Shown in pieces: positions 6,884 to 62,716 of a stretch of 64,000 bases of DNA. The position numbers and the translations under genes are program-made. Under the pieces are notes generated by a model, which saw only the letters and a list, made by a program, of their open reading frames with translations, had not been told where the DNA came from and did no database searches. Origin of the DNA: an uncultured Actinomycetota bacterium (GTDB lineage: Bacteria; Actinomycetota; Actinomycetes; CAVWCF01); the NCBI GenBank assembly GCA_963753435.1, contig CAVWCF010000002.1:1-64000 (forward strand), read 5' to 3'. Every line of letters starts with the position of its first letter. The first letter of the stretch is position 1.

Positions 6884-8158
6884 GTGACCGTAGCCACGGA
6901 TCGTGCGCGCGTTGATGGCCTCGCTGCGGCTGAACCGGCGGTGCCGCGGCTGATCGCGACCGTTCAGGAAGCGCTGCGGACTCGGGGCATCGACCCGGAC
7001 CGGGCCCCGGCTGCGGTATCGGACTTGGCCCGCACGGCCGTCGCCGACTACGACCGTCGCAGCCTGGCCGGCGACCTGCCCCCACTCGTGGACCCGAGCG
7101 CCGCGCTGCGCGCTGTCATGGACGCGGTCGCCGGGTTCGGCCCGCTGCAGGTCTACCTCGACGACGCGACTGTCGAGGAGATCTGGATAAACAACCCGGG
7201 TCAGGTCTTCGTCGCTCGCGGCGGCCGCAGCGAACTGACCAATGTGGTCTTGACCGCCGCGCAGGTGCGAGACCTCGTGGAACGCATGCTGCGCAGCAGC
7301 GGGCGCCGAGTAGACCTGTCGCAGCCGTTCGTCGATGCCGGGCTGCCCGACGGCAGCCGCCTGCACGTGGCCATCCCGGACATCACCCGCGAGCACTGGG
7401 CCGTCAACATCCGCAAGTTCGTCGCCCGCGCCAGCCATCTGGACGACCTCGTCGATCTCGGCACGATCACCGCGCAGGCGGCTCGTTTCCTCGAAGCCGC
7501 GGTCGCCAGTGGGCTGACGGTGCTGGTGGCCGGCGGAACTCAGGCCGGAAAGACGACCCTGCTGAATTGCCTCGGGGCCGCGATCCCGCCCCGGGAGCGC
7601 GTGATCACCTGCGAGGAGGTGTTCGAACTCCAGCTGCCGCTGCCGGATGTCGTGGGTATGCAGACTCGGCAGACGAGCCTGGAAGGCACCGGGGAGATCC
7701 GGCTTCGCCGGCTGGTCAAGGAAGCACTGCGGATGCGCCCCTCCCGGATCGTCGTCGGCGAGGTGCGGCAGGAGGAGTGCCTGGACCTGCTCGTGGCTTT
7801 GAACTCCGGGGTGCCAGGCATGTGCACCGTCCACGCCAACAGTGCGCGCGAGGCACTGACCAAGATGTGCACGCTTCCGCTACTTGCCGGGGAGAACGTC
7901 ACCCACGCGTTCGTCGTACCGACCGTCGCCGCCGCCGTCGACATCATCGTGCACACCGCGCTGCGCCGGGACGGCAGCCGCAGGGTTACCGAGATCGCCG
8001 CGGTTCCGGGTCGGGTGGAGGACGGCGTCGTCGAGATCGAGGATCTGTTCGTAACCCGCAACGGTGAGCTGGTGCGGGCGACCGGCTTTCCGCCGCATCG
8101 AGATCGCTTCGAGTTGGCCGGGTTCGACGTGGTCGGCCTGTTGGAGTCAGGGAAGTGA
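6884..8158 (+). CDS. tadA: CpaF/TadA pilus assembly ATPase
   Basis: Walker A GGTQAGKTT, LRMRPSRIVVGEVR, CTVHANS. Confidence 0.93.
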   Translation: MTVATDRARVDGLAAAEPAVPRLIATVQEALRTRGIDPDRAPAAVSDLARTAVADYDRRSLAGDLPPLVDPSAALRAVMDAVAGFGPLQVYLDDATVEEIWINNPGQVFVARGGRSELTNVVLTAAQVRDLVERMLRSSGRRVDLSQPFVDAGLPDGSRLHVAIPDITREHWAVNIRKFVARASHLDDLVDLGTITAQAARFLEAAVASGLTVLVAGGTQAGKTTLLNCLGAAIPPRERVITCEEVFELQLPLPDVVGMQTRQTSLEGTGEIRLRRLVKEALRMRPSRIVVGEVRQEECLDLLVALNSGVPGMCTVHANSAREALTKMCTLPLLAGENVTHAFVVPTVAAAVDIIVHTALRRDGSRRVTEIAAVPGRVEDGVVEIEDLFVTRNGELVRATGFPPHRDRFELAGFDVVGLLESGK

Positions 8159-8997
8159 CCGGGACCCTATTGGGCCTGCTTCTGGGCGTCGGCCTGCTGC
8201 TGGTCTGGCTGCCGCCGAAACCGGGAAGTCGAACCGACACGTCCCGATTAGACACATGGCTGGCCGAAGCCGGCCTTACCGCCATCACGCCCGCGCGGCT
8301 GGCGCTCAGCTGCCTAGGTACGGGCACCGTGGCGGCAGTACTCATGGCCGGGATCAGCCGATCGCCGGTCCTTGGGTTCGCAATCGGTCTGCTTGCTGCG
8401 ACTGCGCCGATTGCGCTGGTCAACGTGCGTCGCCGTCGGCGAACTGAGGAGCTGCGCGAGGCCTGGCCGGATGCGGTGGACAACCTGGCCAGCGCGGTGC
8501 GGGCCGGGCTGTCCCTGCCGGAGGCGCTGATCCAGTTGGGGCAGCGTGGCCCGGCCCCGCTGCGCCAAGCCTTCGTCGACTTCGGCCGTGACTATCAGGC
8601 GACGGGCGCCCTGAACCCCAGCCTGGACCGGCTGCGCGAACAACTGGCCGATCCGGTCGGTGACCGAGTGGTCGCCTCGATCCGGCTGGCGCGGGAAGTG
8701 GGTGGTACCGACTTGGGACTCCTGCTGCGAACGCTGTCCACGTTCCTTCGCGAGGACTTGCGCACGCGATCGGAGTTGCAGTCCCGGCAGAGCTGGACCG
8801 TCAACGCCGCGCGCCTGGCGGTCGCAGCGCCTTGGGTCCTGTTGGTCCTGCTTTCACTGCGGCCGGAGGCGGTTCGCGCTTACAACTCCGCGGCCGGCGT
8901 GATGGTGCTGCTGGTCGGCGCCGCCCTGTGCATAGTCGCCTACCGGCTCATGGTCCGGCTGGGCCGACTGCCCGCCGAACGACGGGTACTTCGGTGA
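8155..8997 (+). CDS. tadB: TadB (T2SS F-domain) membrane protein
   Basis: WPDAVDNLASAVRAGLSL motif, TM helices, follows ATPase. Confidence 0.88.
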   Translation: MTGTLLGLLLGVGLLLVWLPPKPGSRTDTSRLDTWLAEAGLTAITPARLALSCLGTGTVAAVLMAGISRSPVLGFAIGLLAATAPIALVNVRRRRRTEELREAWPDAVDNLASAVRAGLSLPEALIQLGQRGPAPLRQAFVDFGRDYQATGALNPSLDRLREQLADPVGDRVVASIRLAREVGGTDLGLLLRTLSTFLREDLRTRSELQSRQSWTVNAARLAVAAPWVLLVLLSLRPEAVRAYNSAAGVMVLLVGAALCIVAYRLMVRLGRLPAERRVLR

Positions 8998-9920
8998 ACG
9001 CCTGGATCGGGGCCGCGTTGGGGCTGATCGGAGGTGCCGGCGCGACCCTGACGGTGCTGGCATCGCCGCCGCTGAACCGGCCCACTTTGGAGTCACGGGT
9101 GCTGCCTTACCTCCCGGGCGTCCGTTCGGGTCAGGCCGCACCGATCCGGACGCCGTTTCCGACCATCGAACGCCTGGTCGGACCGTTGCTGGTGGATCAG
9201 GCGCGACGGTTGGACCGCGTCATCGGCGGCGCCATCTCCGTACGTCGTCGGTTGGACCGCTTGAGCGACGCCCGCACTGTCGAGCAGTTCCGCGTCGAGC
9301 AGGTGTTGGCCGCGGCCATGGGCCTGCTGTGCGGCCTGGGCCTTGCGGCCGTGCTGACGCTGGCGGGCAGGCAGGTGCCGGTGCTGGCGGCGTTGATCAT
9401 GATGGCCATCGGCGGTGTCGGCGGCGTGCTGATGATGGACCGAAGGCTCACTCGGCAGGTCACCGAGCGCGAACGGCGCATCGCCGAGGAACTGCCGACC
9501 ATCGCGGAGTTGTTGGCCCTGTGCGTCACCGCGGGCGACGGCCCCGTGTCCGCGCTGAACCGGGTTGCCGAGGCAACGAGCGGGGAGCTGAGCAACGAGA
9601 TTCGCCGGACCCTGACCGAGGCCCGCACCGGCCTGACGCTGGTTTCGGCCCTGGATTCGATGTCCCGACGCACTGGTGTGGCAGCGCTGGCCAGGTTCGC
9701 CGATGGGATGGCCGTTTCGGTCGATCGCGGCACCCCCTTGGCCGACGTGCTTCGCGCTCAGGCGCTGGACGCTCGCGAGGCGGGTCGGCGCGCGTTGATC
9801 GAGTCCGGCGCTCGTCGGGAGATCGCCATGATGATTCCGGTGGTCTTTCTCATCCTGCCCATCTCAGTGGTCTTCGCCCTGTTTCCCGGCTTCTACGGCC
9901 TGGTTCTCACAACCCCCTGA
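8994..9920 (+). CDS. tadC: TadC (T2SS F-domain) membrane protein
   Basis: ELPTIAELLALCVTAG, GTPLADVLRAQA, C-terminal TM; GTG start overlaps tadB stop. Confidence 0.88.
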   Translation: MNAWIGAALGLIGGAGATLTVLASPPLNRPTLESRVLPYLPGVRSGQAAPIRTPFPTIERLVGPLLVDQARRLDRVIGGAISVRRRLDRLSDARTVEQFRVEQVLAAAMGLLCGLGLAAVLTLAGRQVPVLAALIMMAIGGVGGVLMMDRRLTRQVTERERRIAEELPTIAELLALCVTAGDGPVSALNRVAEATSGELSNEIRRTLTEARTGLTLVSALDSMSRRTGVAALARFADGMAVSVDRGTPLADVLRAQALDAREAGRRALIESGARREIAMMIPVVFLILPISVVFALFPGFYGLVLTTP

Positions 9921-9936
9921 TCCGAAAGGAACGACC

Positions 9937-10122
9937 ATGTCCCACCTTCGCTCCCTGGTGCTGCGCGCGGTACCGCGGTTGCGTTCAGAACGCGGCGACG
10001 TACCCGGCTGGGTGCTTGTCACGGTGATGACCGCAGGTCTGGTCACGGCGATCTGGTTGCTCGCCGACGATGTCCTGCAACAACTCTTCAGCGACGCAGT
10101 CACGTCGGTAACCGGCTCTTGA
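9937..10122 (+). CDS. small Flp-like pilin candidate
   Basis: 61 aa, ERG|DVPGW followed by hydrophobic helix, RBS GAAAGGA, position in Tad cluster. Confidence 0.75.
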   Translation: MSHLRSLVLRAVPRLRSERGDVPGWVLVTVMTAGLVTAIWLLADDVLQQLFSDAVTSVTGS

Positions 10123-10496
10123 GCGGCGACGATCGCGGCTCAGCGGTCGTCGAGTTCACGCTGGTTTCGATGCTGCTGCTGGGCTTGTTCCTTGCCCTGG
10201 TGCAGTTGGGGCTGGCTCTGCATGTGCGCAACACCCTGGTCGCCGCCGCCGCCGAAGGTGCACGGGTGGCCGCCCAGGCCGATCGTGAGACCGGTGAGGG
10301 AGAAAGGCTCACGCGCCAACTGATCGCCACCGGCCTGCACGAGGCCGCAGCGCAGGATGTTTCCGCGAGCCGAGTCGTGCTGGACGGCGTGCCGGTCGTC
10401 GAGGTCGAGGTGCGGGCCACGTTGCCCCTGCTGGGTTGGGTGGGGCCACAACGGGCGATGGTCGTTCGTGGTCACGCTTTCGACGAGGCGGCTTGA
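10119..10496 (+). CDS. tadE: TadE-like pseudopilin
   Basis: DDRG|SAVVEF prepilin motif, AAAEGAR. Confidence 0.85.
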   Translation: MSGDDRGSAVVEFTLVSMLLLGLFLALVQLGLALHVRNTLVAAAAEGARVAAQADRETGEGERLTRQLIATGLHEAAAQDVSASRVVLDGVPVVEVEVRATLPLLGWVGPQRAMVVRGHAFDEAA

Positions 10497-10975
10497 TGTT
10501 TGCTTACCGAGCCCGAAAGTGGGTAGTTCACCGGCTGTGCCACCGACCCGAGTCCGGCGATCGCGGCAGCGCTCTCATCGAGGTCGTCGTACTCGGCTTG
10601 CTGGTCCTGTTGCCGCTGGCCTACGTGGTGCTGGCGGTCTTCGAAGTGCAGCGGGCCGCATACGCAACGACCACCGCCGCCCGCGAGGCGGGGCGCGCCC
10701 TGGTCACCGCACCGTCGCAGGCCGCGGCCTTGCCACGCGCGCGTGCCGCGGCAGCGATCGCGCTCGGTGATCAGGGCCTAGGTGAAGGTCGCGAGCAGGT
10801 TCAAGTGACCTGCCCGGCCACGTGCCTACAGCCGGGGGTGCCGGTCACCGTCCGCGTGTCCACCCGGGTTGCGCTGCCATTCGTGCCGGACGTGTTCGGC
10901 CGTGACCTGGCCAGCGTCGCGGTCGCGGCCAGCCACGATGCGGTCGTCGATCGGTTCCGTGAGGTTCCGAGATGA
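10496..10975 (+). CDS. TadE/TadG-like pseudopilin
   Basis: DRG|SALIE prepilin motif, AAREAGRA. Confidence 0.8.
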   Translation: MFAYRARKWVVHRLCHRPESGDRGSALIEVVVLGLLVLLPLAYVVLAVFEVQRAAYATTTAAREAGRALVTAPSQAAALPRARAAAAIALGDQGLGEGREQVQVTCPATCLQPGVPVTVRVSTRVALPFVPDVFGRDLASVAVAASHDAVVDRFREVPR

Positions 10976-11469
10976 GGTCGTCGCCTAGTCATCTGGCGCG
11001 GGGCCTTGCCATTCCCGATGCAGCCGCCGCTGAGTCCGACCGCGGATCCGTGCTCGTTCTCATGATCGGGCTGGTCGCGGTGGTAGTTCTGCTGATCGGC
11101 GTCGTCACCGACGCGTCGGTGCTCTTCTTGACCAAGCGTTCGCTGGCGGCCGTCGTCGACGGCGCCGCGCTAGCGGGCGCCCAAACCCTTGATGAAGCCG
11201 CCTTCTACACCGGGCCTGACAACCCGGCCGAGGCTGGCCGCGTGCCCTTGGATGCGCGGTTGTCGCAGGCGGCAGTGCGCGACTACCTGCACCGCTCGGC
11301 CGCGGCGCAAAGCCTGGATCAATTGGTGCTGCACCAGGTGCAAGTGAGCGCCGAGCAGGTCTCGGTGAGCGCCACCGCCACCGCCGACCTGCCGTTTCGC
11401 CGGTTCGTCGGCGGCGGGCCGGGTGTTCGGCTGCAGGCCGTGGCCACCGCGGAGACGCCATATCGCTGA
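10972..11469 (+). CDS. TadG-related pilus assembly protein
   Basis: DRG|SVLVL, hydrophobic helix, DGAALAGA motif. Confidence 0.8.
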   Translation: MRSSPSHLARGLAIPDAAAAESDRGSVLVLMIGLVAVVVLLIGVVTDASVLFLTKRSLAAVVDGAALAGAQTLDEAAFYTGPDNPAEAGRVPLDARLSQAAVRDYLHRSAAAQSLDQLVLHQVQVSAEQVSVSATATADLPFRRFVGGGPGVRLQAVATAETPYR

Positions 11470-11487: not shown

Positions 11488-12609
11488 ATGGCCGCCGAGG
11501 ATCGAGCACAGACGCTTTCTGAACTGCGCTCCGTCCTGGGATCGGTGGAGGCGGTTCTGGATCTGTCCCACCTGCAAACCCAGATCGACGAGCTCAATGA
11601 AGCGGCCGCTGCGCCGGACCTGTGGGACGACCCCGAAAGTGCCCAGCAGGTGACGAGCAAGCTGTCGTCGTTGCAGAACGAACTGCGCCGTGTCACTGAA
11701 CTTAGGCAGCGTCTGGACGATGTCGAGGTGCTCATCGAACTGGGCGAGGACGAAAGCGACGCCGACTCCCTGACCGAAGCCGACACCGAATTGACGGCGC
11801 TGCACAAGGACTTGGCCGATCTAGAGGTCCGCACCCTGCTGTCCGGGGACTACGACTCCCGCGAGGCGCTGGTGACCTTGCGCGCCGAAGCCGGGGGAGT
11901 GGACGCCGCCGACTTCACCGAAATGCTGTACCGGATGTACTCCCGGTGGGCGGAGCGGCATGGCTACCCGGTGGAGGTCTACGACACCTCCTACGCGGAA
12001 GAAGCCGGCTTGAAGTCGGTCACTTTCGCGGTCAAGGCGCCATATGCCTACGGAACCTTGTCCGTGGAGCAGGGCACCCACCGGCTGGTGCGCATTTCCC
12101 CGTTCGACAATCAGGGCCGGCGGCAGACGTCGTTCGCGGCCGTGGAAGTCCTGCCGGTGACGGAGACAACCGATCATGTGGACATCCCCGAGAACGAACT
12201 GCGCGTGGATGTTTTCCGCTCGTCGGGTCCCGGCGGGCAGAGCGTCAACACCACCGACTCCGCCGTGCGGCTGACCCACATCCCCACCGGCATCGTCGTC
12301 AGTTGCCAGAACGAGAAGAGCCAGATCCAGAACCGGGCCGCCGCCTTGCGCGTGCTGCAGGCGCGGCTGCTGGAGCGACGTCGCCATGAGGAGCAGGCAG
12401 CGCTCAACGCGCTCAAGGACGACTCCGGCGGGTCTTGGGGCAACCAGATGCGCTCCTACGTGCTGCACCCGTATCAAATGGTCAAGGACCTGCGAACCGA
12501 GCATGAGACCGGCAACACCTCGGCCGTGCTGGATGGGGAGATCGACGAGTTCATCGAGTCCGGCGTCCGCTGGCGCAAGCAGCGCGAGACGGCCGCGGCG
12601 GCGTCCTGA
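11488..12609 (+). CDS. prfB: peptide chain release factor 2
   Basis: SPF recognition motif, [23 protein letters not shown]; continuous frame; TACGCT -10 6 nt upstream. Confidence 0.98.
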
Positions 12610-12731
12610 GGCGGGGCAAGGTAAGGCAAGAGTTAGTCCGAACCTGGAAACTGGATCGGCCAGTCGGGTGATTTCCGACAACCTAAACGGACATTTCCGG
12701 GCAAAATTACCCACAGATTCCCCAATGGCGG

Positions 12732-12760
12732 TTGACGTCGCGCCCCGTGCGTAACAGCAT
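12732..12760 (+). promoter_or_regulatory. putative sigma70-type promoter for riboswitch/adhesin transcript
   Basis: TTGACG (12732-37), 17 nt spacer, CAGCAT (12755-60). Confidence 0.45.
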
Positions 12761-12789
12761 TCACATGTCGCGATCTTGAGATTGTGATG

Positions 12790-12879
12790 CCGAGGAGACG
12801 AAGATCCGCGGCCGGTGTTACCGGTCACCTTCCCTACGGGGGGACGGTCGCGGGGAGTCAATGGTGAGACCGCCCTCGG
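12790..12879 (+). ncRNA. class II cyclic di-GMP riboswitch-like aptamer
   Basis: P1 CCGAGG/CCUCGG; GAGACGAAGA; 9-bp stem CCGCGGCCG/CGGUCGCGG; loop GGUCACC can pseudoknot with GGUGAGACC; GGAGUCAAUGGUG segment; in the 5' UTR of a surface-protein gene. Confidence 0.78.
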
Positions 12880-12908
12880 GCCCTGGCAGCCCGAAGAAGG
12901 TGTCTCAA

Positions 12909-14510
12909 ATGAACAGTCCCCACCTAGGACGTCGTGCACTTGCCGTGCTGGCCGCAGGTGCTATCGGTGTGATCTCCCTGCCGGTGTTGGCAATTCCAGC
13001 GTCGGCCGCGGACGTTCTCGGCTTCGAGATCGATGGGGATCTGATCGACAACCCGGCTGGAGGGGCGGCCGACTGGAACACCCGCCTATCCGGTCCCACG
13101 TTGAATGACAACTTCCCCTCGGACACCACGGTGTTCAGCGCGTCATCCAAGGAGGAGGACCTGCCGAGCACCTGGTCCTTCGCGGGTCAGGCGCCGTCGA
13201 AGAGCGACATCGGAAACGTCTACGTCGACACGGACCTCGTGACGGGAAAGATCGTGGTGCGCCTCGGCTGGGACCGGGACAACGGCTCGGGTACTGACAC
13301 GTACTTCATCGAGTTGAACAAGCTGCCCAACGTGTCTGCATCGATCCCGAATCGTTCCGTTGGCGACTTGCGCTTCGCCATCAAGGAGCAGGGCAATGAG
13401 GTCATCGACCTCGCGCTGGTCAGCACGTGGAGCGGCTCGGCATGGACGAACACGGTGCTCAACCCCACCGGCTTCGCCTACGACATCAACGCTGTTGCGG
13501 TGCCTCTGCCCGCCGGGTGGACCAGCCCGAACGAGTCCGGTGGATTGATCCCGGAGGAGCACTTCGTCGAGACCTCGTTCGATCTCACGACGCTCATCGG
13601 CCTGCAGCCGAGCTGCCCGCCGGCGTTCGGCACGCTGAACTTCCGCAACGCGACAGGCAACAGCGGACCGGACACTCCTGCGGGGAAGATCGGTGACAAC
13701 CTAAAGGACACCATCGGCGGACTGAGCGTTCCCGCTCCCAGCACCTGCGGAACGGTGGAGATCGTCAAGGAGACCGTCCCGAGCACCAGCGGCGAGGACT
13801 TCGGGTTCGAACTGATCACTGACAACGCGTCCGGCATCAAGGACCCGGCATACACCGGCCCGATCACGCTTACGACCGGTGCCGACGGCACCGTCAGCAC
13901 GCTCTACACCGTGGCCCCCGGTGACTACGGGTTCCGGGAGGCACTGAAGACCGGTTGGGACCTGACCAAGCTGGTATGCGTCGACCCCACCGATGACAGC
14001 GTTGTCGACTTGGGGCTGCGCATCGCACTCTTCAAGGTTGCCTCCCAGGAGAAGGTCACCTGCACCTACACGAACACCCAGCGGGCGCAGTTGACCATCG
14101 AGAAGGTGACCAGGCCGGGCTCCGGTGAAACGGCCACCCCGGCTACCAGTGAGGTCTTCAACTTCTCCAGCCAGACCGCCGCTATCGGCTCGTTCGGGCT
14201 GCAGGACACGCAATTCAGCACCGCTACCGGGAACCTGCTGCCCAACGCGACCTACACGGTCGGCGAGGCGCTAACGAACGCGCAACTGACCGCTGGGTGG
14301 TTCACCGAGTCGATCACCTGTGACGACGGCACGACGGGCACGATCAGCAGCACCGGTGGGCACCGTCTCGGTCGACCTGAGCCTGGTGACGACGTCAAGT
14401 GCACCTTCACCAACACCAAGAAGGGCATCGTCGAGGTCGAGAAGCAGACTGACCCTGCCGACGCTCCGGACAGCTTCTCGTTCTTCGGGTCTCAGGCGAC
14501 TTCGACTTGA
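12909..14510 (+). CDS. large secreted surface protein, N-terminal fragment (signal peptide, unknown N-domain, first Ig-like repeats)
   Basis: SD AAGGTG; signal peptide MNSPHLGRRALAVL..ASAA; CT(F/Y)TNT repeats; coding sense continues past frameshifts. Confidence 0.8.
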   Translation: MNSPHLGRRALAVLAAGAIGVISLPVLAIPASAADVLGFEIDGDLIDNPAGGAADWNTRLSGPTLNDNFPSDTTVFSASSKEEDLPSTWSFAGQAPSKSDIGNVYVDTDLVTGKIVVRLGWDRDNGSGTDTYFIELNKLPNVSASIPNRSVGDLRFAIKEQGNEVIDLALVSTWSGSAWTNTVLNPTGFAYDINAVAVPLPAGWTSPNESGGLIPEEHFVETSFDLTTLIGLQPSCPPAFGTLNFRNATGNSGPDTPAGKIGDNLKDTIGGLSVPAPSTCGTVEIVKETVPSTSGEDFGFELITDNASGIKDPAYTGPITLTTGADGTVSTLYTVAPGDYGFREALKTGWDLTKLVCVDPTDDSVVDLGLRIALFKVASQEKVTCTYTNTQRAQLTIEKVTRPGSGETATPATSEVFNFSSQTAAIGSFGLQDTQFSTATGNLLPNATYTVGEALTNAQLTAGWFTESITCDDGTTGTISSTGGHRLGRPEPGDDVKCTFTNTKKGIVEVEKQTDPADAPDSFSFFGSQATST

Positions 14511-14568
14511 CCGACAACGGCGTCGAGTCGAGTGCTGCCAAGCCCGGCCTGTATCAGGTAACCGAGAG

Positions 14569-16131
14569 ATGACGCCCGGCTGGGCACTCACGGCGCTCTC
14601 GTGTAACGACAACAACAGCGTGGGCAGCATCGCGACCCGTACCGCGACTTACAACGTCGAGGCCGGCGAGACGGTCCGTTGCACCTTCACTAACACCAAG
14701 CTCGGCCAGATCACGGTGACCAAGGAGATCAACGGCACCAACCAGCCGTTCACGTTCAACTCCGACGGCTTCACGCTGACCGACACCACGCTGGCCGATG
14801 GCGAGTCCGCCTCCTCCACGGTCGGGTTGCTACCTGGGACCTACAAGGTCTCCGAGGTGCTGCCGACTGGTTGGGAGGACCCGCAGATCGTCTGCTCGGT
14901 CACCGGCGGCAACGGCTCCGGCTACCAGATCACCGGGCTGGAGACCACCGTCACGCTGAAGGCCGGCGACACCGTGGCCTGCACGTACACCAACACGGAG
15001 AAGGCTCGACTCAAGATCATCAAGACGACCTCTCCGGCGGGCCAGGGTCCGTTCACGTTCACTGATGTGGACGGCAACGTGACCGGGCTGCCCACCGGGC
15101 TGTCCGACGGCGAGTCCTTCACCAGCGACTACCTGGTCGGCGGCACCTACAACGTCGAGGAGACCATCCCGGCCGGTTGGGAGATCGCCTCGATCGTCTG
15201 CAATGACCCCGACGACGGCACTACCTACGACGCCGACGCTGGCACCATCGCGTTCGACCTGGACCCGGGCGAGTTGGTCGACTGCACGGTCAACAACCGC
15301 GCCCAGGGCCGGATCGTTCTGGAGAAGGAGACCGACCCGCTGAGTGAGGACGGCACCTTCACCTACACCCAGGGCGGCGGCATCACCGACTTCGACGATG
15401 CCTCCACCTGGAACTCGGGGACGTCCGGCGAACTGGTGACCCAGAACGGCAAGGACGGCTGGTTCTCCGGCTACGTCACCGCCGGTACCTACACGATCAG
15501 CGAGGACACGCTGCCAGCCGAGTGGAACCTCGCCGACATCACGTGCCAGGAGACCAACGCGTTGACCGGCGGCGCCGGTGACGGCGGATCCTCCGGGTCG
15601 GTCGCGACCGACGCCAAGTCCGGTACTGCCACCTACGACGTGGACCCGGGCGAGACGGTGCTGTGCACGTTCACCAACACCAAGCTCGGCATGATCACCG
15701 TCACCAAGGAGACCCTGCCGGCTGACTCGAGTGAGACGTTCGACTTCACCGATGTCGGCATCGACTGGGTCAGTGACCCGATCGACCTGGGCAACGGCGA
15801 CTCGGCCTCGTCCGTGCCGCTGCCTGCGGGCAACTACTCCATCACCGAGATCGGTGTTGGCGGTTGGGACCTGACCGGGCTCACCTGCACCTCCAACCAG
15901 CGCGACGACTTCGATGGCGACCTGGAATCCGCCACCGTCGACATCACGCTGGGCAAGGCGGAGGTTGTCGAGTGCACCTTCACCAACACCCAGCGCGGCA
16001 ACGTCGTGGTCGAGAAGCTCACCGACCCCGCCGGCCTGGGCCCGTTCGACTTCACCAGCGACATACGGGATCGGCGAACGATCCGTTCGCGCCGTCGCTG
16101 TCCGACACCGAGACCGACTCGGTCGAGGTGA
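14569..16131 (+). CDS. large surface protein, middle fragment (prealbumin-like/SpaA-type repeats)
   Basis: Five repeats ending (V)xCT(F/Y/V)xN, each followed by IxxxK; same repeat type as flanking fragments. Confidence 0.78.
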   Translation: MTPGWALTALSCNDNNSVGSIATRTATYNVEAGETVRCTFTNTKLGQITVTKEINGTNQPFTFNSDGFTLTDTTLADGESASSTVGLLPGTYKVSEVLPTGWEDPQIVCSVTGGNGSGYQITGLETTVTLKAGDTVACTYTNTEKARLKIIKTTSPAGQGPFTFTDVDGNVTGLPTGLSDGESFTSDYLVGGTYNVEETIPAGWEIASIVCNDPDDGTTYDADAGTIAFDLDPGELVDCTVNNRAQGRIVLEKETDPLSEDGTFTYTQGGGITDFDDASTWNSGTSGELVTQNGKDGWFSGYVTAGTYTISEDTLPAEWNLADITCQETNALTGGAGDGGSSGSVATDAKSGTATYDVDPGETVLCTFTNTKLGMITVTKETLPADSSETFDFTDVGIDWVSDPIDLGNGDSASSVPLPAGNYSITEIGVGGWDLTGLTCTSNQRDDFDGDLESATVDITLGKAEVVECTFTNTQRGNVVVEKLTDPAGLGPFDFTSDIRDRRTIRSRRRCPTPRPTRSR

Positions 16132-18485
16132 AGCCAGGGACCTACACGGTGACCGAGGGTGAGTTCGCCGAGACCGTGCTCAGCACGATCGTCTGCGACG
16201 ACACGAACAGCTCGACGCCGAGCAGCGGAGACACCGGAACCCGCACCGCCACGTACAACGTGGAGCCGGGTGAGACGGTCAAGTGCACCTTCACCAACAC
16301 CCGCAACGGTGTGGACCTGACGGTGACGAAGACCGCTGTCCCGACGTTCACTCGCGTCTGGGTCTGGGAGATCGTCAAGGAGTCCGACGCGACCTACAAC
16401 CTGCTCGCCGGCCAGAGCGTCGACCACGACTACACCGTGGACGTCACGCCGACACCGGTGGACGGCTCCTGGTTCGTGACCGGAACGATCACGGTGACGA
16501 ACCTCAACGGTTACGACGTGACCGATGTCGATGTCACCGACACAGTGGACAACGGCGGCAACTGCGTCGTCACCAGCGGCACCGGGTTGACGGTTCCCGC
16601 CAACGACAGCGTGGAGGTGGACTACACCTGCACCTACGCGGCTGAGCCCAGCCCGCTGGCGGGGACCAACACCGCAGAGGCCACTTGGGATGCGGCTGCC
16701 AACTACACCCCCACCGGTTCGGCCGAGGGAACTGCCGGATTCGTCTTCGATGACGGCACGGTCGGCAACCCGAACGAGATCGATCCGGTCATCACCGTCG
16801 ACGACGACAAGTACGACGGCGACGCCGGCTGGACTGCCGACCGCAGCGCGGAGCAGTGGACCTACACGGTCAACTACCCGTGCTCCACGGACGTGGCCGA
16901 CTACACCGACGGCGTGTACTCCTACGAGGTCGTCAACACCGCCACGATCAACGAGACGGGTGCGAATGACGATGCGACCGTCACCGTCAACTGCTCGATC
17001 GCGGTCGCGTCCAAGGACGCAGCCGGCACCTACGACGAGCGGCACGAGTGGGATGTTGAGAAGTCCGTCGACCCGGAGACGCAGGACGCGTTCGCCGGTG
17101 AAGACGGCGACTACACCTGGACCGTGACGGTCACCGAAGAGGTCTTCGATGAGGCCTTCGAGGTCACCGGTCAGATCCAGGTCCTCAACCCCAGCAGCGA
17201 AGCCGTGCTCAACGCGACGGTTACCGACGAGCTGGATGACGGGACCGTGGCTGTGATCACCGGTTGCACCGACGGTGAGTTCACCGCTCCCGACCAGTTG
17301 GTCGTCCAGCCTGGCGACACGGCCACCTGCGACTACACCGCAGCGCCTTCGGACGCGTCTGCAACCAAGAACGTCGTCACCGTGGTGGCCAACGGGGTCA
17401 CCTCGACCGGTGAGGCCGACCTGGCGTGGACGTCGAACGTGATCCGCGGCCAGGTGGAGTTGACCGACGACCAGAACCCGGCCTTCCCGATCACGATCGA
17501 TGAGGGCGGAGAATGGACGTACGACGACTCCGAGACCTGCTCGACCAACCCGGCGGACTACGGGGAGACCGGCTCGTACACGATCACCGATGACAACACC
17601 GCGGTGATCAGCGCGGGCGAGAACGAGCTGGATTCGTCCAGCGCGTCGGCCGAGGTCAACTGCTACGCCCCGATCGTCACCAAGGACGCGAACACCGACT
17701 TCACGCGGATTTGGAACTGGGAGATCGAGAAGGTCGAGGACGCGGAGTACGACCTGATCGCCGGTGAAGGAGTGACCCACGACTACACGGTCACGGTCAC
17801 GCCGACTCCGGTCGACGACCAGTGGGCGGTCAGCGGCACGATCACCGTTGCCAACCCGAACCCGAGTGCGGACATGGTGCTCACATCGCTCACTGACGAC
17901 GCCGGTGGCGTGGTCGCCGAGCACGACTGTGACGACCTGACCGTTCCGGCCGGCGGCACGCTGGAGTGCAACTACACCACTGGGCCGCAGGACAGCCCCG
18001 ACGCCAACCCGTTCGGCGACACCAACACGGCCACGGCCGGGTTCGCCGGAGTGGACTGGACCGGGACCGCAGCCATCGAGTTCGCCGATGACCCCACGTC
18101 AGAGGTGGACCCGGTGATCACCGTCGACGATGACCTGTACGACGGGGATGCGGGCTGGACCGCGGACCGCTCGGCCGAGGAGTGGACGTACTCCACCGAC
18201 TACGTCTGCCCCGACACCAACTCTGCTGAGTACGTGGACGGCCTGTTCACCGAGCAGACCATCAACACCGCAACGATCATCGAGACGGAAGCCAGCGACA
18301 CCGCGACCGTCACCTTGAACTGCGCGGACGTCGTGGTCGAGGCGGTAGTCATTCAGCCGCCTCTGGCCAAGACCGGCCTGGGCATTCCGGTCAACCTGCT
18401 GGCGAGTGTGGCGCTGGCCATGCTGACCGTCGGCCTGGGGATGCGCTTCAGTGCGCGGAACCGCCGGGAGACCCTGGGCGCCTGA
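16065..18485 (+). CDS. large surface protein, C-terminal fragment with LAKTG sorting signal
   Basis: Acidic Thr/Asp-rich repeats; LAKTG + hydrophobic stretch + RNRR tail; start given is the frameshift point, not a start codon. Confidence 0.82.
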   Translation, partial: TGSANDPFAPSLSDTETDSVEVKPGTYTVTEGEFAETVLSTIVCDDTNSSTPSSGDTGTRTATYNVEPGETVKCTFTNTRNGVDLTVTKTAVPTFTRVWVWEIVKESDATYNLLAGQSVDHDYTVDVTPTPVDGSWFVTGTITVTNLNGYDVTDVDVTDTVDNGGNCVVTSGTGLTVPANDSVEVDYTCTYAAEPSPLAGTNTAEATWDAAANYTPTGSAEGTAGFVFDDGTVGNPNEIDPVITVDDDKYDGDAGWTADRSAEQWTYTVNYPCSTDVADYTDGVYSYEVVNTATINETGANDDATVTVNCSIAVASKDAAGTYDERHEWDVEKSVDPETQDAFAGEDGDYTWTVTVTEEVFDEAFEVTGQIQVLNPSSEAVLNATVTDELDDGTVAVITGCTDGEFTAPDQLVVQPGDTATCDYTAAPSDASATKNVVTVVANGVTSTGEADLAWTSNVIRGQVELTDDQNPAFPITIDEGGEWTYDDSETCSTNPADYGETGSYTITDDNTAVISAGENELDSSSASAEVNCYAPIVTKDANTDFTRIWNWEIEKVEDAEYDLIAGEGVTHDYTVTVTPTPVDDQWAVSGTITVANPNPSADMVLTSLTDDAGGVVAEHDCDDLTVPAGGTLECNYTTGPQDSPDANPFGDTNTATAGFAGVDWTGTAAIEFADDPTSEVDPVITVDDDLYDGDAGWTADRSAEEWTYSTDYVCPDTNSAEYVDGLFTEQTINTATIIETEASDTATVTLNCADVVVEAVVIQPPLAKTGLGIPVNLLASVALAMLTVGLGMRFSARNRRETLGA
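16782..18191 (+). repeat. internal duplicated coding segment (84 nt copies at 16782-16865 and 18108-18191)
   Basis: DPVITVDDDKYDGDAGWTADRSAEQWTY vs DPVITVDDDLYDGDAGWTADRSAEEWTY; differences mostly synonymous. Confidence 0.85.
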
Positions 18486-27938: not shown

Positions 27939-28304
27939 GGGGGTGAACGGTTTCGACTTCGTGTGTCGAATCAGGGGAAGCGGGCCGAGGACGGTGGTTC
28001 TGATCTCGCAAACCATGAGCCGCAAACCAATAAGTGCCGATTCCAATCGCACTGACTTCGCCCTCGCCGCCTGAGCGAGTGCCAAGTCCGTCAGTCCGGT
28101 AGTGCCTTCGCACCGGGTCCTGGCGTCGACTAGAAGGCTCACTGCTCGACCCGGTCACGGGGCCTAGCAGGACACCAAACAGTGACTGAGCCTGGCGGCA
28201 ACTTGCCTGCGTGATTGCCGGGGCTGAGAAATCCACAGCAGGCTGCGCCCGGAGAAGCCCTGTGCCGTCGCCGAAGGACGCGGGTTCGATTCCCGCCACC
28301 TCCA
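27939..28304 (+). ncRNA. ssrA: tmRNA (tag peptide ADSNRTDFALAA)
   Basis: 5' GGGGGTGAACGGTTTCGAC; G3-U70 acceptor stem with CACCTCC-A; T-arm GCGGGTTCGATTCCCGC; tag ORF 28036-28074; -10 TACACT at 27915. Confidence 0.97.
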
Positions 28305-28332
28305 CCCCCGCTGACTCATCTCGAGTCACGTA

Positions 28333-55161: not shown

Positions 55162-55247
55162 TGGTGCGGGAGGAGGGACTTGAACCCTCACGCCCAGTGG
55201 GCACAGGAACCTAAATCCTGCGCGTCTGCCAATTCCGCCACTCCCGC
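55162..55247 (-). tRNA. tRNA-Leu(TAG)
   Basis: GCGGGAGTGGCGGAATTGGCAGACGCGC.., anticodon TAG, long variable arm, GTTCAAGTC, CCA encoded. Confidence 0.95.
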
Positions 55248-62162: not shown

Positions 62163-62235
62163 TGCGCCGCCAGGGACTCGAACCCCGAACCCGCGGATTA
62201 AGAGTCCGCTGCTCTGCCAGTTGAGCTAGCGGCGC
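62163..62235 (-). tRNA. tRNA-Lys(CTT)
   Basis: GCGCCGCTAGCTCAACTGGCAGAGC.., loop CT-CTT-AA, GTTCGAGTC. Confidence 0.95.
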
Positions 62236-62639: not shown

Positions 62640-62716
62640 TGGGGTGAGTGACGGGACTTGAACCCGCGACGTCCTGGACCACAACCAGGTGCTCTACCAA
62701 CTGAGCTACACCCACC
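62640..62716 (-). tRNA. tRNA-His(GTG)
   Basis: G-1 + GTGGGTGTAGCTCAGTTGGTAGAGC, loop TT-GTG-GT, C discriminator, CCA encoded. Confidence 0.95.

What the first reader, a model, noticed from the sequence alone, without database searches (positions are those of the whole stretch)
12790..12911. c-di-GMP-II-like riboswitch with a readable translational ON switch in an actinomycete
Seen: P1 CCGAGG(12790-95)/CCUCGG(12874-79); stem CCGCGGCCG(12806-14)/CGGUCGCGG(12845-53) flanked by GAAGA and GGAG; a pseudoknot GGUCACC(12823-29)/GGUGAGACC(12863-71); and an extra UCCC-UACG-GG hairpin inside the loop. Established: this architecture matches the class II c-di-GMP riboswitch (kink-turn + pseudoknot), best known from Clostridia upstream of pilus/adhesin genes. 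Here the 3' pseudoknot strand reads GGUGAGACC rather than the GGUGCAACC I recall, so it may be a variant class. Also seen: a mutually exclusive hairpin (UGAGAC 12865-70 with GUCUCA 12902-07; UCGGGC 12876-81 with GCCCGA 12889-94) encloses the SD AAGGUG (12897-12902) just before the AUG at 12909. Inference: ligand binding frees the SD, giving a translational ON switch for an adhesin.
Basis: partly seen in the sequence, partly recalled or inferred. Interest (0 to 1): 0.8.

Follow-up and report, generated by a model that had tools for sequence, protein, structure and literature searches.

The report
Known GAG-variant c-di-GMP-II riboswitch
This is a real copy of an already catalogued RNA switch (the 'GAG' variant of the class II cyclic-di-GMP sensor) that likely turns on translation of a large cell-surface protein gene, and the same switch also sits directly in front of the gene for BldD, a c-di-GMP-binding master regulator, in many related actinomycetes, which suggests its still unproven signal is likely c-di-GMP.

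Summary
The element is a member of Rfam c-di-GMP-II-GAG (RF03169): 61.9 bits against a cut-off of 40, above the GCG (55.3) and canonical (40.8) models. It is not a new class, and this scan has reported the family at least ten times on other DNA. The variant is a U37/A69 to C37/G69 swap at a base that reads the ligand; the two positions covary (77 C-G, 13 U-A of 93 parsed relatives). The anti-SD ON switch is supported by folding only: ribosome-site opening cost falls by 3.3 kcal/mol (8 of 500 shuffles reach this), and the same coupling holds in 10 of 10 families for this subtype. The target gene, a SpaA-repeat surface protein, is frameshifted twice in this assembly. I found no reported ligand. 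New lead: the aptamer sits directly upstream of bldD in 23 of 118 bldD-bearing genomes (11 families). With four ordinary GGDEF cyclases and no cGAMP synthase found in this genome, c-di-GMP is the likely ligand (about 75%); 3',3'-cGAMP is not excluded.

The parts
12732..12760 (+). candidate promoter: TTGACG (12732-37), 17 nt, CAGCAT (12755-60); would start the RNA near 12767, upstream of the aptamer
   Evidence: one-mismatch pattern match; TTGACG also stands in Streptomyces bldD promoters; the sigma-70 scan found nothing; start site not tested
12761..12773 (+). BldD-box-like site TCACATGTCGCGA, one mismatch to TNAC(N5)GTNA
   Evidence: consensus from PMC4151990; a weak single match, binding not tested
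12785..12884 (+). c-di-GMP-II-GAG riboswitch aptamer (Rfam RF03169), whole model 1-86
   Evidence: 61.9 bits, cut-off 40
12790..12795 (+). P1, 5' strand (pairs with 12874-79)
   Evidence: the same P1 sequence stands in orthologous leaders L211 and L212
12796..12799 (+). A12796 (= A13, pocket floor) and P2 5' strand GAC, pairing with GUC 12857-59; first pair G-C where 3Q3Z has A14-U60
   Evidence: numbering mapped from PMC7288161 and PMC13715770, mapping inferred
12800..12805 (+). kink-turn, bulged strand GAA-GA-U (partner G12854-G12855-A12856)
   Evidence: sequence and Rfam alignment; k-turn geometry inferred
12806..12853 (+). P3 stem (12806-14 with 12845-53) closing the loop that holds the pseudoknot strand
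12822..12829 (+). C12822 (= position 37, covaries with G12868) and pseudoknot 5' strand GGUCACC
12831..12842 (+). inserted hairpin with a UACG tetraloop; an insertion relative to the Rfam model at a site where relatives also carry inserts of varying length
12860..12872 (+). A12860 (= A61), pseudoknot 3' strand, and the ligand-reading bases G12868 (= 69, A in the canonical class), A12869 (= A70) and G12872 (= G73)
   Evidence: contact roles from PMC13715770
12865..12907 (+). predicted OFF-state hairpin using the pseudoknot 3' strand and the P1 3' strand; cannot coexist with the aptamer
   Evidence: -20.2 kcal/mol for 12860-12915; controls
12897..12902 (+). Shine-Dalgarno AAGGUG, 6 nt before the AUG
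   Evidence: AGGUG is complementary to the genome's own 16S 3' tail
12909..18485 (+). gene for a surface protein of about 1,850 aa: signal-peptide-like start, SpaA_4 prealbumin-like repeats, C-terminal LAKTG sorting-like motif, hydrophobic stretch and basic tail; frameshifted near 14510-14570 and near 16065-16085
   Evidence: relatives' contigs are in frame at these places
11488..12609 (+). upstream neighbour, peptide release factor (prfB-like); context only
   Evidence: PCRF and RF-1 domains; the name prfB is recalled

Best explanation
The leader holds a c-di-GMP-II-GAG riboswitch aptamer (Rfam RF03169) that likely binds c-di-GMP and is predicted to act as a translational ON switch for the surface-protein gene behind it. 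Without ligand, the strand 12865-12881 would pair with 12889-12907, burying the G-rich part of the SD and breaking both P1 and the pseudoknot. With ligand, the same strand would be locked into the pseudoknot and P1, making the ribosome site cheaper to open. The variant differs from the canonical class by swapping U37/A69 for C37/G69, which likely keeps the pair and changes the edge that reads one ligand base. Shown: family membership, helices, covariation of 37 with 69, position before the gene, and the bldD association in relatives. Inferred: transcription start, ligand, switching direction, and function of the protein as an adhesin.
For: Membership. Covariation: C37/G69 in 75 and U37/A69 in 23 of 104 parsed loci (126 fetched); a stricter parser gave 77 and 13 of 93, with 3 exceptions. 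Pair 42-66 also swaps, A-U in 40 and G-C in 53, though pairing there was a parsing condition. ON switch: the aptamer's 3' strand raises the cost of opening the ribosome site by 3.3 kcal/mol here; 8 of 500 shuffles and 9 of 74 foreign aptamer strands reach that. Among 26 GAG aptamers of this subtype before secreted-type proteins, 21 shift by 1.5 kcal/mol or more towards ON and 2 towards OFF, and the own strand beats swapped strands in 10 of 10 families. Class II switches of C. difficile are ON switches for adhesins and pili (PMC11477304, passages). Ligand: GAG and canonical-type copies control the same kind of gene (52 of 72 and 17 of 21 secreted-type by a crude signal-peptide rule), and this genome has one of each. 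The aptamer lies directly upstream of bldD in 23 of 118 bldD-bearing genomes, and all 23 proteins keep the c-di-GMP motif RxD-X8-RxxD. Perfect BldD boxes precede 8 of 32 aptamers of this subtype at other genes (0.3 expected). The genome has 4 GGDEF domains, all with the guanine-specifying Asp rather than the Ser of cGAMP-making Hypr enzymes, 2 EAL domains and no SMODS match. G73, which reads a guanine directly, is kept.
Against: No binding or expression data. The changed base (69) is a direct ligand contact, so specificity or affinity may differ. In the full-length constrained fold G12899-G12902 remain mostly paired through weak alternative helices. The modelled OFF ensemble is about 20 kcal/mol below the ON ensemble before pseudoknot, k-turn and ligand energies are added (-60.7 against -40.5). 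The two orthologous leaders shift 3.8-4.0 kcal/mol towards ON but no more than their shuffles (71 and 75 of 200). The coupling is weaker in the other GAG subtype (9 of 12 families) and in canonical-type copies (8 of 13), and has no consistent direction at bldD (10 ON-like, 4 OFF-like of 21). Families are related, so the per-family tests overstate. A diadenylate cyclase is present too (42 of 43 aptamer-bearing genomes against 43 of 43 for GGDEF), so co-occurrence does not single out c-di-GMP. The gene is frameshifted in this assembly while 13 housekeeping ORFs checked look full length.
Confidence: 0.62

Rival explanations
1. Same fold and ON logic, but the C37/G69 swap has shifted specificity to 3',3'-cGAMP: adenine would be read by the sugar edge of G69, guanine by G73.
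For: Position 69 reads the upper ligand base through its sugar edge. An engineered class II variant binds 3',3'-cGAMP at 11 nM with adenine at that site (PMC13715770, whole text and supplement 3). A guanine sugar edge can pair with adenine as well as guanine (own knowledge of base-pair geometry). The variant was set apart in a paper on altered ligand specificity (title seen; content recalled, not read).
Against: No Hypr-type GGDEF among the 4 in this 98%-complete genome, and no SMODS match; the DncV-like search rang nowhere, controls included, so it shows nothing. The window has G14-C60, which in that paper lowered 3',3'-cGAMP affinity threefold. The gene context is the BldD/c-di-GMP network.
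Confidence: 0.1
2. It senses c-di-AMP or another, unknown dinucleotide signal.
For: A DAC-domain gene is in this genome and in 42 of 43 aptamer-bearing genomes. A G sugar edge can read adenine (own knowledge).
Against: G73 is kept (GAG in 77 of 93 parsed loci) and reads guanine directly, adenine only through water. The target genes match those of canonical-type copies.
Confidence: 0.08
3. It binds c-di-GMP, but the hairpin the reader saw is not the working platform: control is weak, kinetic, or acts through RNA stability or Rho, or this copy is idle because its gene is a pseudogene.
For: Residual SD pairing in the modelled ON state and a large modelled OFF-ON gap; orthologous platforms no better than shuffles; two frameshifts in the gene.
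Against: The window's coupling beats 492 of 500 shuffles, and the subtype shows it across 10 families. No intrinsic terminator on the + strand. Close relatives' contigs show no listed change in 12785-12911, while one has six listed changes in 12631-12783, and they are in frame at both breaks.
Confidence: 0.2

Closest known systems
c-di-GMP-II-GAG riboswitch aptamer (Rfam RF03169, clan CL00127; from recall, proposed by Weinberg et al. 2017, PNAS 114:E2077, which I could not read)
   Same: Whole-model match at 61.9 bits; P1, P2, k-turn, P3, pseudoknot; G-A-G at positions 69, 70 and 73; placed just before a start codon.
   Different: A 13-nt insertion forming a UACG hairpin after the pseudoknot strand; otherwise an ordinary member.
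canonical c-di-GMP-II riboswitch (Rfam RF01786; C. acetobutylicum structure 3Q3Z; C. difficile adhesin and pilus switches)
   Same: Architecture; pocket bases A13, A61, A70, C71, C72, G73; ON control of surface-protein genes.
   Different: 40.8 bits, below the cut-off of 53.5. U37 to C, A69 to G, C68 to A (with its partner U), A14-U60 to G-C. The C. difficile switches are mostly transcriptional; this one is predicted to be translational.
c-di-GMP-II-GCG variant (Rfam RF03170)
   Same: Scores above its cut-off (55.3 against 47.9).
   Different: Lower score than GAG; position 70 is A here, not C (my reading of the family names, inferred).
c-di-GMP-II-Bh, an engineered B. halodurans variant that binds 2',3'- and 3',3'-cGAMP (PMC13715770)
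   Same: Same scaffold; its A9G/U55C mutant has the G-C pair that the window has naturally at 14-60.
   Different: It keeps A at the position that is G here, so it says nothing direct about G69.
BldD-(c-di-GMP)4 regulon of Streptomyces (PMC4151990)
   Same: [quoted passage not shown]
   Different: Streptomyces and Kitasatospora bldD leaders showed no aptamer: 1 of 13 bldD loci tested had an Rfam riboswitch hit, a record titled Frankiaceae; the 3' motif was in 2 of 80. In 11 other families an aptamer lies between the box and the gene.

Membership tests
c-di-GMP-II-GAG (RF03169) | covariance-model score above the curated cut-off over the whole model | tested here: met
   61.9 bits against 40, model 1-86
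c-di-GMP-II-GAG (RF03169) | best-scoring family of its clan | tested here: met
   GAG 61.9, GCG 55.3, canonical 40.8
c-di-GMP-II-GAG (RF03169) | G-A-G at pocket positions 69/70/73, with C at 37 (my reading of the name; matches the model consensus CGGuCGCC ... GGCGAGACCG) | tested here: met
   C12822, G12868, A12869, G12872
c-di-GMP-II clan | P1, P2 and P3 around a three-way junction, with a kink-turn between P2 and P3 | tested here: met
   pairs listed; the aptamer alone folds to P1, P2 and part of P3 (-41.2 kcal/mol); the k-turn is judged from sequence only
c-di-GMP-II clan | pseudoknot between the P3 loop and the 3' junction strand | tested here: met
   7 Watson-Crick pairs
c-di-GMP-II clan | lies in a 5' leader with an expression platform | tested here: inconclusive
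   36 nt from G73 to the AUG, anti-SD coupling above controls; start site unmapped, and no RNA contig was laid on the leader
c-di-GMP-II clan | binds c-di-GMP and changes expression | not testable with these tools
   indirect support only
canonical c-di-GMP-II (RF01786) | score above the cut-off of 53.5 | tested here: not met
   40.8 bits
canonical c-di-GMP-II (RF01786) | U37 and A69 in the ligand pocket | tested here: not met
   C and G here
c-di-GMP-II-GCG (RF03170) | C at position 70 (inferred from the name) | tested here: not met
   A12869; the score of 55.3 passes the cut-off but is below GAG

The most novel reading that the evidence does not exclude
The C37-G69 swap has turned the class II pocket into a sensor for an adenine-containing dinucleotide such as 3',3'-cGAMP. 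In at least 11 families of non-streptomycete actinomycetes this RNA controls translation of bldD, so that a second signal gates the c-di-GMP master regulator and the surface proteins together. A milder version needs no ligand change: c-di-GMP controls BldD twice, through the protein and through its own mRNA. I put that at about 0.55, with interest about 0.55.
Probability: 0.1. Interest if true: 0.8.

Novelty: new member of a known kind. Interest (0 to 1): 0.36.

Why it matters
The element itself is ordinary: a catalogued family, common in this class and seen many times in this scan. Its value is as a clean test piece for an open question, the ligand of the GAG variant. It has a short leader with a readable anti-SD helix, a canonical-type copy in the same genome as an internal control, and only ordinary diguanylate cyclases among those found. 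The bldD link matters more. If real, c-di-GMP riboswitches are wired into the best-known actinomycete c-di-GMP circuit, with a BldD box (21 of 23 loci) and an aptamer in the same leader. That gives a genetic argument for the ligand and a feedback loop to test. I did not find this link in the held library (by titles and abstract starts, plus passages of five papers) or in this scan's notes. The founding paper and its supplements, which list gene associations, were not available, so the link may already be on record.

Tried and rejected
New riboswitch class: rejected by the Rfam hit. Folding z-score as evidence: uninformative (z = -0.45). Transcriptional terminator platform: none on the + strand; the one terminator-like hit is on the - strand, at 12930-12916. 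A longer start at 12861 (ORF list): it lies inside the aptamer, and 12909 has an SD and matches the orthologs' N-termini. Loss of BldD's c-di-GMP motif where the aptamer is present (RNA replacing protein sensing): rejected, 23 of 23 keep it. Co-occurrence with GGDEF against DAC genes: no discrimination, 43 and 42 of 43. DncV-like search: rang nowhere, controls included. A single switching direction at bldD: not found. Expression: run X5 (RNA) has contigs on the coding region only and X8 none on the leader; contigs cannot show starts or levels. Whether the frameshifts are assembly errors: unresolved; the closest-matching run (X2) has no listed piece across either break, and the table was cut. 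Papers not held: Weinberg 2017, Smith 2011, Lee 2010, Bose 2016. PMC3764141, PMC13541005, PMC13089018 and PMC12564702 passages gave nothing on the variant or on a bldD riboswitch.

Full report
Observation. I read 12300-13400 and checked each helix by script. P2 (12797-99/12857-59) and the k-turn pattern complete the fold. Folding energy alone is unremarkable (z = -0.45); the evidence is the covariance-model match.

Identity. Rfam gives c-di-GMP-II-GAG (RF03169) at 12785-12884: 61.9 bits, cut-off 40, whole model. The GCG model gives 55.3 (cut-off 47.9) and the canonical model 40.8 (cut-off 53.5). A second copy, with U37/A69 as in the canonical class, lies at G000:C1:44475-44556 before a DUF11-repeat surface protein. 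In 151 genomes of the class, 64 have a match at E <= 0.001 and 54 above the cut-off. Earlier notes of this scan report the family at least ten times.

What the variant changes. I mapped the window on the 3Q3Z numbering using the contact list in PMC7288161 (passages) and PMC13715770 (whole text; supplement 3); the mapping is my inference from spacing. A13, A61, A70, C71, C72 and G73 are kept; U37 is C, A69 is G, and A14-U60 is G-C. According to PMC13715770, base 69 reads the upper ligand base by its sugar edge, G73 reads the lower guanine, and A70 stacks between them. I fetched 126 of about 133 matches. One parser read 104 of them: 75 C37/G69, 23 U37/A69 and 6 others, which look like mis-parses. 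A stricter parser read 93: 77, 13 and 3 exceptions. Positions 37 and 69 thus behave as a Watson-Crick pair that has been swapped. Pair 14-60 varies widely among GAG copies, so it is not a defining contact. A guanine at 69 adds an amino group to the reading edge, which could suit either guanine or adenine (own knowledge). Structure alone does not name the ligand.

Expression platform. The stretch 12860-12915 folds into a hairpin of -20.2 kcal/mol that uses the pseudoknot and P1 3' strands and pairs G12899-A12907. AGGUG matches the genome's own 16S tail. I measured how much the aptamer's 3' strand raises the cost of opening positions -14 to +3: 3.3 kcal/mol here (7.4 against 4.0), reached by 8 of 500 shuffles and 9 of 74 foreign strands. 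That test used 75 loci, left after I dropped unparsed loci, duplicates, starts outside 20-70 nt and ORFs that were neither secreted-type nor BldD. Of 65 secreted-type loci, 47 shift towards ON by 1.5 kcal/mol or more and 4 towards OFF; the own strand beats swapped strands in 17 of 22 families, and in 10 of 10 for the window's subtype. Against this: the fully constrained ON fold still pairs G12899-G12902 weakly; the OFF ensemble lies 20 kcal/mol lower before pseudoknot and ligand energies; the two orthologous leaders do not beat their shuffles; and related families are not independent. There is no terminator on this strand. A promoter candidate at 12732-60 would start the RNA near 12767 (untested; the sigma-70 scan found none).

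Target gene. Positions 12909-18485 encode a protein with a signal-peptide-like start, SpaA_4 prealbumin-like repeats and a LAKTG sorting-like tail. 'Adhesin' is inferred. Codon bias shows two frame changes, near 14510-14570 and 16065-16085. Relatives' contigs differ there by lengths that keep the frame (+8 in X1; -14 in X1 and -26 in X3). Thirteen housekeeping ORFs found by motif look full length; five motifs found nothing. Error or pseudogene stays open. Orthologs in G001 and G002 carry the same aptamer with an insert of about 60-70 nt that hides it from Rfam, so all counts here are lower bounds.

Ligand. None of my ten searches showed a report of the GAG ligand. The founding paper was not held, and its supplements may bear on ligand tests and gene associations. 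Indirect evidence favours c-di-GMP. The genome has four GGDEF domains, all with Asp at the PleD D344 position, where cGAMP-making Hypr enzymes have Ser. It also has two EAL domains, one DAC and no SMODS match. GAG and canonical-type copies precede the same kind of gene.

The bldD link. Matching by eye and checking by script, the aptamer lies directly upstream of bldD in 23 of the 118 genomes with a BldD-like match (151 searched), in 11 families. Four of the 23 score below the cut-off. Two (G030, G043) are unpublished genomes; without them the count is 21 genomes in 10 families. L018, from unpublished G032, enters the covariation and platform counts. One of these proteins passes the NCBIfam BldD cut-off and matches solved BldD domains (naming those entries as BldD is recalled). 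All 23 keep RxD-X8-RxxD (bioRxiv 10.1101/2021.08.26.457767, passages). Twenty-two have the GAG 3' strand; L124 reads A at 69 by my pattern. A perfect BldD box (PMC4151990, passages) precedes 21 of 23 (0.2 expected), and also 8 of 32 aptamers of the window's subtype and 4 of 37 of the other subtype at other genes (0.3 and 0.2 expected; simple shuffles). The box lead came from note e1-5243399. The window has only a one-mismatch box, and its own bldD has no aptamer. Streptomyces and Kitasatospora bldD leaders showed none. The switching direction at bldD is mixed: 10 ON-like and 4 OFF-like of 21 scored.

Mechanism and odds. Most likely, c-di-GMP (about 0.75) locks the pseudoknot and P1, withdraws the anti-SD strand and raises translation of a surface protein, as class II switches raise adhesin and pilus expression in C. 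difficile (PMC11477304, passages; PMC9481103, passages). I give the whole reading 0.62, a different platform or an idle copy 0.2, 3',3'-cGAMP 0.1, and c-di-AMP or an unknown signal 0.08.

Other papers seen: PMC5737381, PMC5473149, PMC12452182, PMC9943018, PMC3764141, PMC13089018, PMC12564702 and PMC13541005, passages only; none described the GAG variant's ligand or a bldD riboswitch in those passages.

Verdict. A real, ordinary member of a known family with an unproven ligand. The bldD association is the part worth following. Interest 0.36.

Noticed in passing
L013, L016, L020, L026, L028, L031, L049, L057, L059, L062, L066, L068, L069, L083, L088, L100, L104, L113, L114, L117, L120, L124, L126; also L131:338-453: GAG-type aptamer directly upstream of bldD, usually just behind a perfect BldD box, in 23 of 118 bldD-bearing genomes (11 families); L026 and L028 come from unpublished genomes.
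   Followed up: yes
G000:C1:44475-44556 (L002:1501-1582): Second class II aptamer in the same genome with canonical U37/A69, before a 248-aa DUF11-repeat surface protein; predicted ON shift 7.5 kcal/mol.
   Followed up: partly
L211:1187-1353 and L212:1287-1456: Orthologous leaders carry the aptamer with a structured insert of about 60-70 nt before the pseudoknot loop, which drops the Rfam score to about 24 bits; the family is undercounted.
   Followed up: partly
window 14510-14570 and 16065-16085: Two frameshifts in the surface-protein gene at patches where relatives' contigs differ by several indels; a further compensated pair of indels at 14360/14381.
   Followed up: partly
L014, L018, L021, L050, L058, L061, L064 and others: A GAG subtype (GGCGAGACC) with a long extra arm 5' of the pseudoknot loop and a recurring GGACGGGAG before the start codon; often precedes very small secreted-type proteins of about 70-90 aa.
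   Followed up: no
G060:C64:81820-84225; G088:C42:41832-44352; G020:C1:200213-201555: Runs of two or three neighbouring surface-protein genes, each with its own GAG aptamer.
   Followed up: no
window 6884-11469: Tad/Flp-type pilus cluster (TadA-like ATPase, TadB/C-like and TadE-like ORFs) about 1.3 kb upstream of the riboswitch, beyond the release-factor gene; only the ATPase was checked.
   Followed up: partly
G000:C1:148303-148761 (-): The genome's own BldD is divergent (51% identical to the L020 protein), starts with GTG and has RGD-X8-RASD; no aptamer upstream.
   Followed up: partly
G000:C1:543272-544508 (-): Adjacent GGDEF and EAL matches lie in different open frames and the GGDEF match stops at model position 139; possibly another frameshift.
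   Followed up: no
window 27939-28307, 55165-55247, 62163-62235, 62643-62715: tmRNA and three tRNA genes.
   Followed up: no
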